Positions 21,001-24,000 of a stretch of 64,000 nucleotides of DNA are shown here, piece after piece. Origin of the DNA: Bythopirellula sp. (lineage in GTDB: Bacteria; Planctomycetota; Planctomycetia; Pirellulales; Lacipirellulaceae); assembly GCA_965216565.1 (NCBI GenBank), contig OZ244170.1, positions 576,001 to 640,000 of the forward strand. Reading direction: 5' to 3'. A program made the position numbers. The stretch's first letter is position 1. The number at the start of each line of letters is the position of its first letter.

Positions 21001-24000
21001 ACAACATGTATCGGATGGGGCGGCTCTATGTACCCGCCGGGGTGCTCGACTTAGCCCCTCAGTTTAGCCAATAACCTCAGCCTGCGCATAGGAGCCAAGT
21101 ATGGTTAGCCGCACAGCCTTTTTCTCCAGAGAGGCCAGAGCCCGACGGGCCCGCAACTCACTGGCATGGCCTTGAAACTCCACAAAGAAAAAGTAGCGGC
21201 CTCGCTGGCCGGGAACGGGAAACGATTCGATCCACGTCATATTTAATCGCTGTCGTTTGAAAATGCCCATCGCATCCGCCAAGGCACCCGGTTTGTGATC
21301 GAGTTCGAAAACGATCGAGGTCTTGTCATTCCCCGTTTTCGTCCCGCTATGGTTGGCGATGACAGCGAACCGGGTGACATTGTCGGGATTGTCTTCGATG
21401 TTGCGGGCTAGAACTTGCAGGCCGTGATTCACTCCTGCCTGCTGACTGGCAATGGCTGCCGACTTGGGTTCGTCAGCAGCACGGCGGGCGGCTTCGCCAG
21501 TGCTAGAAACCTCGCGAAGTTCGACGCCGCCCATACGTTTGCTCAGCCAATTGCGGCACTGGGAGAGTGGCTGTGTCTTGCTATAGATGCGTTCGACCTG
21601 TTCGCGAGAACCAGTCCCGAGTAGGCAGTGATGTATGGCCAACGGTATCTCACCGCAAATTTTCAAAGGTGAGCGCGCTAAACAATCTAACGCATCCGTC
21701 ACGCGTCCATCGGTGGAGTTTTCGATGGGAACAATTCCATATTCCACGTGGCCACTTTCAACCTCGTCGAACACCGCGGCTATGGAAACCACCGGGACGA
21801 AAGTCACGCTTTGGCCAAATTGCTCAACTGCGGCCAGGTGACTGTAAGTGAACTCAGGGCCCAAGAATGCCACATGAGTGGGTCGCGCCGTTGCGCTGCA
21901 GGCGCTGACTATTTCGCGAAAAATTGCTTGCACAGAGTCGGTGGTCAACGGGCCATCATTCTGATTAACGATTCTCTGTAGTGCATCTGGATTGATCCCC
22001 GACCACGAAGACTCACCTGCCTCGCGTTGAGCAGTGAGAGTCGCGCGGTGATTCGCGAGTGCCAGGATCTCTTTGTCAATTTTGTCGATCTGCCGCGTCG
22101 ACGGTTTTCGCATCGGCGCTGTGGACGACTTCTTTTTGTTGGTGCGTTTTTTTGCCATAGCTGAGTAGTATGTGGGCCCGGCGCTCTACCGCCAAGACAA
22201 CTTGTCGGAGGTGTTGAGAATGAATTTGGGACCAGGCTGAAGCGAGAGATGCAAGTCAACAGTCTGCCAAACTGGCAACGGGCATCTTAGAGACACCGTG
22301 GGCATGTGTGCAGTGCGCTGCCAAAGTGGCAGATTTGGACCCAAAACTGCCATAATATGAAAGTGCCAAAATAGTCGTAAGTCTTGTTTTGATAGTGACT
22401 TACATAGAATTTGTGAGTTCGATTCGGGTGGCACACCCTTTGCTTCAATCTGTGTTCGACCGTCGAGGTTCCATTTCCGGGGCTTCTGCGAGTCCAACTA
22501 ATTGCAAACCTACATACCCGGCAGCGAGAACTGCCGTTCCAAGGCAGAACAGATAGTCTGCCACCAAATAACTGCACTCAAGAGGAGATCACGCAATGGC
22601 TGCGGGAGAAAAAATTATTGGCATCGATCTGGGCACTACCAACTCGGTAGTGGCTGTGATGGAAGGTAAAGAAGCGAAGGTCATTCCGAACCCGGAAGGA
22701 AACCGCCTCACGCCTAGTGTCGTTGCTTTTACAGATAAAGAAGAAGTCTTAGTTGGCGAACCAGCTCGTCGCCAGGCTGTGACTAATCCTTCGCGAACGG
22801 TTTATTCCATCAAGCGATTCATGGGACGACGTCACAACGAGGTCGCTTCGGAAGAGAAGATGGTTCCCTACGAGGTTGTAGGCGGCCCCGAAGATTACGT
22901 GAAGGTGAAAGTCAATGATCAGGAATTCACCCCGCCAGAAATTTCTGCGAAGACCTTGCGTAAGCTTAAGGAATCGGCGGAAGCCTATTTGGGGCACACA
23001 GTCAACAAGGCCGTAATCACCGTTCCGGCGTATTTCAATGACGCCCAACGTCAAGCAACCAAAGATGCTGGGCAGATTGCTGGGCTTGAAGTCGCGCGCA
23101 TTATCAACGAACCGACCGCTGCGTCTCTCGCTTATGGTTTGGATCGCAAAGCACAAGAAACGATTTGTGTGTTTGACCTTGGTGGCGGTACGTTCGACGT
23201 CTCCATTTTGGAAGTTGCTGATGGTGTATTCCGCGTGATCTCCACCAATGGTGATACTCACTTGGGTGGTGACGACTTTGATGAAGAACTGATTAACTAC
23301 GTCGCCGACGAGTTTAAAAAAGAGCAAGGCATCGACTTGCGTGGCGATCAAATGGCTCTACAGCGTTTGCAGGAAGCTTGCGAGAAGGCCAAGAAAGAGT
23401 TGAGCTCGGCCCAAGCGACCGACATCAACTTGCCGTTCATCACGGCCGACGCTAGTGGTCCAAAGCATTTGCAGATGAACATCACTCGCGCCCAGTTCGA
23501 AAAACTCGTCGACGGTTTAGTCGAACGCGTGAAGGGACCGCTGAAAAAGGCTCTGGAAGATGCCAAGTTGAGCCCTAGCGATATCGACGAAATCGTTCTG
23601 GTTGGCGGCTCAACGCGAATTCCTAAGGTGCAAGAAGCCGTAAAGGAAATCTTCGGCAAAGATCCCCACAAGGGGGTGAATCCTGATGAAGTGGTGGCTA
23701 TTGGGGCCGCGATTCAGGGTGGTGTGCTCTCTGGTGAAGTGCAGGACATCCTATTGTTGGACGTCACACCATTATCACTGGGCATCGAAACCCTTGGGGG
23801 TGTAATGACCAAACTTGTGGAGCGAAACACCACGGTTCCTACGGAGCGCAAGCAGGTGTTTAGCACTGCTGACGACAATCAAACAGCAGTGACCGTCCGC
23901 GTGTTCCAAGGCGAACGCGAAATGTGCGCCGACAACCGCTTGCTCGGTCAGTTCAATCTGGAAGGCATCCCGCCCGCGCCGCGTGGTGTACCACAGATCG

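What a model noticed while it worked through the whole genome (the two positions that open the first line are those of the whole stretch)
22250..22600. Heat-shock enhancer TGCCA-N3-TGGCA upstream of sigma54 chaperone promoters
The chaperone operons dnaK-clpB, groEL-groES-dnaJ-grpE (569975), groES-groEL (4423954) and hsp20 (4317552) share an upstream palindrome TGCCA-N3-TGGCA about 110-130 bp before a sigma54 -24/-12 promoter. It is the likely enhancer of the heat-shock activator in a genome with no HrcA, CtsR or RpoH call.
Evidence so far: All 5 intergenic strict matches in the genome lie before these four operons and the matrix from relatives ranks them at the top. The degenerate site occurs upstream of dnaK in 23 of 24 Pirellulales loci versus 0/30 recA, 0/29 leuA, 0/30 aroF, 1/23 cimA; sigma54 promoters at calls 95, 99.
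(Added by a program. Inside this text positions count along the whole contig: contig position 576,001 is position 1 of the stretch shown here. "Call 12" and the like, gene names such as g00115 and contig names such as C1 are that model's own, and its searches are not shown. The text may have been shortened before it was handed on; [...] marks where a part breaks off. The agent that wrote the report below was given it as the finding of a first reader that could run no searches.)

Follow-up and report, generated by a model that had tools for sequence, protein, structure and literature searches.

The report
Sigma-54 chaperone enhancer and its activator
The main protein-folding genes of this planctomycete sit behind a sigma-54 promoter and a short palindrome conserved across the phylum, and gene order points to one two-component activator as the likely switch in bacteria where the textbook heat-shock regulators were not found.

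Summary
Confirmed. Two perfect TGCCA-N3-TGGCA sites lie 164 and 110 bp before a sigma-54 promoter of dnaK-clpB. The module also precedes groEL, groES and hsp20. The genome-wide count (25) is chance level; the placement is not. The consensus is TG(C/T)CA-N3-TG(G/A)CA. It is conserved at dnaK (28/28), groES (29/29) and groEL (29/29) in the order and at 61/89 dnaK loci in the phylum, and it is helically phased to the promoter.

Added here: a candidate activator, the REC-AAA-HTH protein at contig 2915807-2917201, with an adjacent sensor-less kinase. An enhancer-binding-protein gene stands upstream of dnaK in 32/89 relatives; 31 of them best-match this one of the genome's 16. Three genomes lacking it lack the site. 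The Bacteroidota sensor-less activator has the same recognition helix.

Sigma-54 promoters at these genes are already in print (PMC12316311, PMC9723704). This scan had found the palindrome before on other planctomycete, Bacteroidota and verrucomicrobial DNA. I did not find the site or the activator in print. Binding and heat dependence are untested.

The parts
22265..22277 (.). Distal enhancer palindrome TGCCA-AAC-TGGCA, 164 bp before the -24 box
22319..22331 (.). Proximal enhancer palindrome TGCCA-AAG-TGGCA, 110 bp before the -24 box and 54 bp from the distal one
22348..22376 (+). Two further TGCCA half-sites with degenerate right halves (22348, 22364); possible weak sites, below the matrix print threshold
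   Evidence: sequence; not scored
22377..22403 (.). A/T-rich imperfect inverted repeat between enhancer and promoter; candidate IHF/HU bending site (inferred)
   Evidence: A/T-rich stretch at -52..-28 across 86 relatives; two HU/IHF-family genes in the genome
22429..22444 (+). Sigma-54 -24/-12 promoter TGGCAC-N5-TTGCT; transcription start predicted near 22454
   Evidence: (top-ranked module of 1301 sigma-54-like sites); start site inferred from the -12 position
22580..22587 (+). Ribosome-binding site of dnaK
   Evidence: sequence
22596..24512 (+). dnaK (638 aa)
   Evidence: NCBIfam NF001413 and TIGR02350 over cut-off
24588..27260 (+). clpB (890 aa), probably co-transcribed (75-bp gap)
   Evidence: TIGR03346 over cut-off
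21064..22158 (-). Divergent pheA-like prephenate dehydratase; not a conserved neighbour, so not taken as the target
   Evidence: upstream genes vary in relatives

Best explanation
The palindrome is the upstream activating sequence of a sigma-54 chaperone regulon (here dnaK-clpB, groEL-groES-groEL-dnaJ-grpE, groES-groEL and hsp20). It is read by the NtrC-type activator at contig 2915807-2917201 (464 aa, REC-AAA+-Fis HTH), encoded behind a 270-aa sensor-less histidine kinase (2917413-2918225) between pnp and mutL. Shown by sequence: the sites, promoters, phasing, the two genes and their linkage to dnaK in relatives. Inferred: under protein-folding stress the kinase phosphorylates the receiver aspartate; activator dimers on the tandem sites oligomerise, loop over an IHF-type bend and open the sigma-54 closed complex. 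How the kinase senses stress is a guess (chaperone titration or direct heat sensing). My odds: sigma-54 enhancer 0.9; this protein as reader 0.75; heat or proteotoxic signal through this kinase 0.55.
For: Conservation: order-level dnaK 28/28 (<=1 mismatch; 25/28 perfect; other spacers 0/28 perfect); groES 29/29 and groEL 29/29 with promoter plus site; hsp20 14/18; phylum dnaK 61/89 versus 0-14/89 for other spacers. Phasing R=0.39 near 10.7 bp (n=86, 0 of 5000 jittered sets) and R=0.52 in the groE set (n=58). 26 of 52 tandem pairs are exactly 40 bp apart. A matrix built without this genome ranks the four chaperone promoters 1-4 of 1301. Blind metagenome scan: 58 of 119 module hits have DnaK, GroES, GroEL or Hsp20 downstream. 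Activator: an EBP gene lies upstream of dnaK in 32 of 89 non-own loci; 31 of 32 best-match 2915807; all 32 carry the helix [IM][GS]xRTLYR[KR], found in 1 of the 16 own EBPs; 34 of 95 genomes by coordinates. G041, G078 and G013 show no ortholog and no site at dnaK or groES. G030 and G024 lack the site at dnaK, keep the pair and have the site at groES. No HrcA in 101 phylum genomes. R. baltica dnaK, groEL, hsp20 and clpB rise within 10 min of heat while rpoN is reported unchanged.
Against: No binding, start-site or knockout data. 28 of 89 phylum dnaK regions have no <=1-mismatch site within 450 bp, several of them with a sigma-54 box and the EBP next door. 61 of 119 metagenome hits have no chaperone match downstream; those that Pfam named are diverse. 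Tree support is modest: 89 for the clade, with two long-branch own paralogs inside, and 41 in the smaller tree. The three co-absence genomes were picked for lacking the site, come from two families and are incomplete. No site upstream of the activator or kinase genes, so no autoregulation (by eye). Its sigma-54-contact loop reads GAFTDA, not GAFTGA. clpP, clpX and ftsH lack the module; hsp20b and a fourth groEL have a sigma-54 box without it. The R. baltica paper says rpoH, rpoE and rpoN are 'all present' there.
Confidence: 0.72

Rival explanations
1. It is a sigma-54 enhancer, but read by a different one of the 16 EBPs (for example the domain-less 3860276, my first guess); the gene order beside dnaK is ancestral linkage without regulation.
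For: Four own EBPs lack an input domain, as expected of a chaperone-titrated regulator and as in the Bacteroidota candidate. In this genome and the Pirellulales loci examined the candidate sits by pnp/mutL, not dnaK.
Against: None of the other 15 own EBPs carries the helix shared by all 32 dnaK-adjacent EBPs, and one of 32 (a partial gene, near tie) best-matched another. The Bacteroidota protein has the candidate's helix. Site and candidate are absent together in three genomes.
Confidence: 0.1
2. The activator and site are right, but the system supplies housekeeping or growth-coupled chaperone expression (kinase in an operon with pnp) rather than heat induction.
For: The kinase has no sensor domain. 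In Flavobacterium psychrophilum sigma-54 chaperone promoters respond to blood, osmotic stress, plasma and freshwater (PMC9723704). No sigma-70-type promoter was found in front of dnaK, so basal expression probably also needs this route.
Against: R. baltica counterparts are heat-induced within 10 min with rpoN unchanged, which calls for post-translational control. A stand-alone receiver gene heads many site-bearing operons, which suggests feedback.
Confidence: 0.12
3. The palindrome binds an unrelated repressor or nucleoid protein, or is two back-to-back sigma-54 -24 boxes (TGGCA).
For: The half-site equals the -24 pentamer. ECF-sigma promoters show a weak excess at spacer 3 (11/29 at <=1 mismatch versus 1-4/29).
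Against: The second G of the right half-site is A in 38 of 139 sites, whereas the -24 GG is near-invariant (established knowledge). ECF orthologs mostly keep a sigma-54 box but only 2/29 have a perfect site. Sites sit 76-167 bp upstream and are helically phased, and sigma-54 promoters need an activator.
Confidence: 0.05
4. Chance match.
For: 25 strict sites genome-wide is within the range of control spacers.
Against: Conservation in 28/28, 29/29 and 29/29 loci with control spacers near zero.
Confidence: 0.01

Closest known systems
Predicted sigma-54 promoters of GroEL/GroES/IbpA/GrpE/DnaJ/DnaK/ClpB in Planctomycetota and Bacteroidota (PMC12316311; passages read)
   Same: Same promoters, same target genes, same phylum.
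   Different: The passages seen give no enhancer sequence and assign no activator to the chaperone promoters.
Sigma-54 (SM4) promoters of groES-EL, dnaK, grpE-dnaJ, htpG, lon and clpB in Flavobacterium psychrophilum (PMC9723704; passages read)
   Same: Start-site-mapped sigma-54 promoters at the same chaperones. The flavobacterial EBP between miaB-like and lptE-like genes (names recalled) has the same recognition helix.
   Different: Activator left open among three; 'palindrom' occurs 0 times in the main text (supplement not searched). The flavobacterial protein has no receiver domain, and its dnaK palindromes lie closer to the promoter (two genomes, by eye).
Myxococcus xanthus HsfB/HsfA activating lonD (as summarised in PMC9109919; passage read; original paper not seen)
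   Same: A two-component NtrC-like activator of a heat-shock gene.
   Different: HsfB is a hybrid kinase; the targets cited are lonD, secondary-metabolite and pilY1 genes, not the core chaperones. Orthology not tested.
Chlamydia AtoS/AtoC (CtcB/CtcC) and the tandem sigma66-sigma54 promoter of hrcA-grpE-dnaK (PMC8762339, PMC4652624; passages read)
   Same: Same superphylum; a sigma-54 promoter at the dnaK operon and a kinase/EBP pair that rises on heat.
   Different: Chlamydia keeps HrcA/CIRCE as the main control; no HrcA was found in 101 planctomycete genomes. Orthology not tested.
NtrC-type enhancers and Fis-family HTH activators (nearest solved HTH: PDB 4L4U/4L5E, NtrC family)
   Same: REC-AAA+-Fis-HTH layout; short palindrome with a 3-bp centre (NtrC and LuxO sites recalled, not checked).
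   Different: The candidate is below the curated cut-offs of ntrC, AtoC, ZraR and GlrR: no named family.

Membership tests
Sigma-54 enhancer-dependent promoter | -24/-12 GG-N10-GC consensus | tested here: met
   22429-22444; conserved in relatives
Sigma-54 enhancer-dependent promoter | Palindromic site about 80-160 bp upstream, often tandem | tested here: met
Sigma-54 enhancer-dependent promoter | Face-of-the-helix phasing between site and promoter | tested here: met
   R=0.39 (n=86) and 0.52 (n=58) at 10.5-10.7 bp; kin are not independent
Sigma-54 enhancer-dependent promoter | IHF site between enhancer and promoter | tested here: inconclusive
   A/T-rich stretch; two HU/IHF-family genes, below IHF cut-offs
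Sigma-54 enhancer-dependent promoter | rpoN in the genome | tested here: met
   PF04552 at 4953318
Sigma-54 enhancer-dependent promoter | Activator binds the site and transcription needs sigma-54 | not testable with these tools
   needs EMSA/ChIP and knockouts
NtrC-type (group I) enhancer-binding protein | Receiver, AAA+ (PF00158) and Fis HTH domains | tested here: met
   protein 18
NtrC-type (group I) enhancer-binding protein | GAFTGA loop | tested here: inconclusive
   reads GAFTDA; activity of the variant not tested
NtrC-type (group I) enhancer-binding protein | Cognate kinase encoded next door with H-box and ATPase domain | tested here: met
   HisKA + HATPase_c; adjacency conserved
HrcA/CIRCE regulon | hrcA gene | tested here: not met
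   0 of 1, 0 of 101
CtsR regulon | ctsR gene | tested here: not met
   0 of 31
RpoH (sigma-32) regulon | rpoH gene over the family cut-off | tested here: not met
   best 163.6 bits against cut-off 323.1
Myxococcus HsfB/HsfA | Hybrid histidine kinase | tested here: not met
   270-aa kinase with HisKA and HATPase_c only
Myxococcus HsfB/HsfA | Orthology of the activator | not tested
   no HsfA sequence was obtained
Chlamydia AtoS/AtoC | Orthology of kinase and activator | not tested
   no chlamydial sequence was fetched

The most novel reading that the evidence does not exclude
One ancient sigma-54 activator lineage with the helix G(I/M)(G/S)ERTLYRK is the master chaperone regulator across Planctomycetota, Bacteroidota, Gemmatimonadota and Latescibacterota (and, per earlier notes, Verrucomicrobiota): a heat-shock control system beside sigma-32, HrcA, CtsR and HspR. 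In planctomycetes it is switched by a sensor-less cytoplasmic kinase that reads unfolded-protein load or temperature directly, and it is damped by a stand-alone receiver protein transcribed as the first gene of its own target operons.
Probability: 0.35. Interest if true: 0.85.

Novelty: new variant of a known kind. Interest (0 to 1): 0.62.

Why it matters
Planctomycetes induce chaperones on heat, yet HrcA was not found in 101 genomes and the R. baltica study concluded that the cascade must differ from E. coli's. A named site, activator and kinase make that open question testable with one deletion and one gel shift. The shared recognition helix suggests the same answer for Bacteroidota, where the sigma-54 chaperone promoters are mapped but the activator was left unassigned in the paper read. 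The sample includes anammox bacteria (Scalindua; Brocadia-type genomes).

Tried and rejected
My first candidate, the domain-less EBP 3860276, was dropped: no dnaK-adjacent EBP best-matched it.

Genome-wide enrichment of the strict motif: none.

Autoregulation: no site seen before the kinase or activator genes.

ECF sigma 3662935 as a regulon member: two 1-mismatch sites here, but a perfect site in only 2 of 29 order loci; weak or lineage-specific. The csrA-like (2169969) and CsbD-like (1311008) genes have single weak sites at 99 bp; not checked in relatives.

Lon and HtpG were not located with recalled short motifs, so they were not tested.

No clear counterpart of the stand-alone receiver was found in this genome (the top hit there is circular, since the activator's own receiver was in the profile).

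Eight dnaK loci sets from Acidobacteriota, Hydrogenedentota, Eisenbacteria, Nitrospirota, Desulfobacterota, Cloacimonadota, Myxococcota and Bdellovibrionota showed no site within range of a promoter; most have grpE directly upstream, so the true promoter may lie beyond the 1.5 kb read. The Eisenbacteria locus has an EBP and a sigma-54 box before dnaK but a different helix.

Studholme & Dixon 2004 on Pirellula EBPs is not held; only its citation was seen, and it may bear on novelty. The careful tree did not finish. No structure or complex prediction was run.

Full report
1. The observation. The window holds two strict TGCCA-N3-TGGCA sites at 22265-22277 and 22319-22331, a sigma-54 -24/-12 element at 22429-22444, then dnaK and clpB. 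The genome has 25 strict sites, within the 14-29 given by the same half-sites at other spacers, so abundance means nothing. Placement does: five sites precede dnaK-clpB, groEL-groES-groEL-dnaJ-grpE, groES-groEL and hsp20, each with a sigma-54 box 89-164 bp downstream. HrcA and CtsR were not found, and RpoH stayed under its cut-off. rpoN and 16 enhancer-binding proteins (EBPs) are present. The genome is 94% complete. Its candidate activator groups with Pirellulales sequences next to Aeoliella.

2. Conservation. In a 31-genome sample of the order, 28 of 28 dnaK loci examined have a site with at most one mismatch to TG(C/T)CA-N3-TG(G/A)CA; 25 are perfect and 14 strict, and other spacers give 0 perfect. 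groES and groEL each show promoter plus site in 29 of 29 non-own loci. hsp20 shows a site in 14 of 18 usable loci. In a phylum sample, 95 of 101 genomes gave a DnaK hit; I read 90 loci, one too short. 61 of the 89 (own included) have a site, against 0-14 for other spacers; 28 do not. Named members with site and promoter at dnaK include Aeoliella, Aporhodopirellula aestuarii, Rhodopirellula sp. SM50, Pirellula, two Scalindua and a Phycisphaeraceae genome; one further planctomycete (two dnaK loci) had none in range. As a control, orthologs of an ECF sigma gene mostly keep a sigma-54 box but have a perfect site in only 2 of 29 loci (11 of 29 at one mismatch). A blind scan of metagenomes for site plus promoter stopped at 119 loci; 58 have DnaK (26), GroES (12), GroEL (9) or Hsp20 (11) downstream; 39 loci had at most 300-bp flanks, and the named remainder is diverse.

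3. Geometry. Sites lie mostly 76-167 bp before the -24 box, and 26 of 52 tandem pairs are exactly 40 bp apart. Distances of the nearest site recur every 10.5-10.7 bp: R=0.39 for 86 dnaK loci, reached by 0 of 5000 jittered sets, and R=0.52 for 58 groE loci. Kin are not independent, so these are descriptive. An A/T-rich stretch lies 28-52 bp before the -24 box, and the genome has two HU/IHF-family genes. A matrix built without this genome ranks the four chaperone promoters first to fourth among 1301 sigma-54-like sites; an ECF sigma gene and CsbD-like and csrA-like genes follow with weak sites. No sigma-70-type promoter was found before dnaK.

4. The activator. In 9 of the first 29 relatives the gene just before the enhancer was an EBP, and each best-matched the own protein at 2915807-2917201. 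Over all 89 non-own loci (29 read to 1.5 kb upstream, 60 to 3.2 kb) the count is 32; 31 best-match it, the exception being a partial gene with a near tie. All 32 carry the helix [IM][GS]xRTLYR[KR], which 1 of the 16 own EBPs has. By coordinates the count is 34 of 95 genomes, a lower bound because only 150 rows were listed. The protein is REC-AAA+-Fis HTH with the loop variant GAFTDA. It follows a 270-aa kinase with only HisKA and ATPase domains, between pnp and mutL. The order pnp-kinase-EBP recurs in named Pirellulales, Scalindua and Brocadia loci, and kinase-EBP-dnaK in other lineages. In five genomes the kinase alone precedes dnaK. Most of 39 kinase orthologs start 20-50 residues before the H-box; three show a hydrophobic stretch by eye. 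Trees place all 28 near-complete dnaK-adjacent EBPs with the candidate and the Bacteroidota, Gemmatimonadota and one Latescibacterota protein at support 89, but two long-branch own paralogs fall inside and two own EBPs were skipped. A smaller quick tree gave support 41. The assignment therefore rests more on best hits and helix than on the tree.

5. Co-absence. I picked five genomes with no site at dnaK. G041, G078 and G013 (96-97% complete, two families) have rpoN but only paralog-level EBP and kinase hits, and no site at groES; G041 and G078 show sigma-70-type promoters there. G030 and G024 keep the kinase-EBP pair and carry site plus sigma-54 box at groES. Five Brocadia-type genomes, in which the DnaK query found nothing, have a site 190-194 bp before a sigma-54 box at groES. 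Against: G031 and G025 showed no scored site at groES within 1.5 kb. The selection was on the feature, so this is supporting, not decisive.

6. Wider reach and feedback. Two flavobacterial genomes have a receiver-less EBP ending in GISERTLYRKI; a Gemmatimonas and a Latescibacterota genome have site and promoter at dnaK and an EBP with a similar helix; a Blastocatellia genome has neither. A stand-alone receiver gene is the first gene of dnaK operons in five phylum genomes and of many site-bearing groES operons, mostly with the phospho-Asp kept. I infer a phosphate sink giving negative feedback; no counterpart was found in this genome.

7. Mechanism. Most likely the kinase phosphorylates the activator under folding stress; dimers on the tandem sites oligomerise, loop across the bent A/T-rich stretch and open the sigma-54 complex. 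Sites, promoters, phasing and gene linkage are shown; binding, phosphotransfer and the signal are inferred. The only expression evidence is from R. baltica: tabulated ratios at 10 min of heat are 3.47 (dnaK), 2.95 (groEL), 2.84 and 4.58 (hsp20) and 1.94 (clpB), with rpoN reported unregulated (PMC2754498, passages and supplement rows). That text also says rpoH is present there, and the two heat-induced kinases it names are 1637 and 860 aa, so not this one. I did not read R. baltica's own promoters.

8. What is known. Sigma-54 promoters at these chaperones are predicted for Planctomycetota and Bacteroidota (PMC12316311, passages) and start-site-mapped in F. psychrophilum with the activator left open (PMC9723704, passages). 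M. xanthus HsfB/HsfA is a precedent for a two-component NtrC-like heat-shock activator (PMC9109919, passage). Chlamydia has a sigma-54 promoter at hrcA-grpE-dnaK under HrcA (PMC8762339 and PMC4652624, passages). Searches showed no paper giving the palindrome or naming the activator; the library lacks most subscription papers, Studholme & Dixon 2004 is not held, and the supplements of PMC9723704 and PMC12316311 were not searched. Earlier notes of this scan already report the promoter-plus-palindrome module in a planctomycete, Bacteroidota, Verrucomicrobiota and a phage. I saw only their summary lines; those lines name an activator for Bacteroidota, none for planctomycetes.

9. Verdict. A real, phylum-wide sigma-54 chaperone enhancer with a well-supported candidate activator and kinase. 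It works like an NtrC-type system and belongs to no named heat-shock regulon tested: new variant of a known kind, interest 0.62.

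Noticed in passing
G026, G049, G068, G085 (family f27) and G141 (Brocadia sp. 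WS118): The DnaK N-terminal query found nothing in these anammox-type genomes (f27 genomes 99-100% complete), while two Scalindua genomes have dnaK. Possible loss of DnaK in this lineage; not found with this query, the HSP70 family was not searched.
   Followed up: partly
L134, L153, L172, L178, L182 (dnaK); L382, L398, L401, L406, L550, L558, L560, L562, L563, L569 (groES): A stand-alone receiver gene is the first gene behind the sigma-54 promoter of chaperone operons; candidate phosphate sink.
   Followed up: partly
G000 3662935-3663588 (L256): ECF sigma factor followed by an anti-sigma-like gene; a sigma-54-type promoter is conserved in most of 29 order loci, and two 1-mismatch palindromes occur here.
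   Followed up: partly
G000 2169969 (csrA-like) and 1311008 (CsbD-like): Both have a sigma-54 box, an A/T-rich stretch and a weak palindrome exactly 99 bp upstream.
   Followed up: no
G000 570221, 572400, 1499580, 4424716: Four groEL genes and three groES genes; the 1499580 copy and the second hsp20 (1049923) have sigma-54-like boxes without the palindrome, so probably another activator.
   Followed up: partly
G000 3857118-3863545 (L006): A 1053-aa HEAT-repeat protein overlaps a domain-less EBP, followed by a cytochrome c assembly gene and hemA; a possible trans-regulated activator.
   Followed up: no
L447, L452, L468: Three metagenome module hits precede sigma-70-family genes, hinting at sigma-factor cascades under the same or a similar site.
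   Followed up: no
window 28011-33409: Rrf2-family regulator, alginate-export-type porin and, divergently, DsrO/DsrP-like electron-transfer genes downstream of clpB.
   Followed up: no
L159, L162, L177, L188 (family f18): A roughly 450-aa gene is inserted between the activator and dnaK; these loci have a sigma-54-like box but no site at one mismatch.
   Followed up: no
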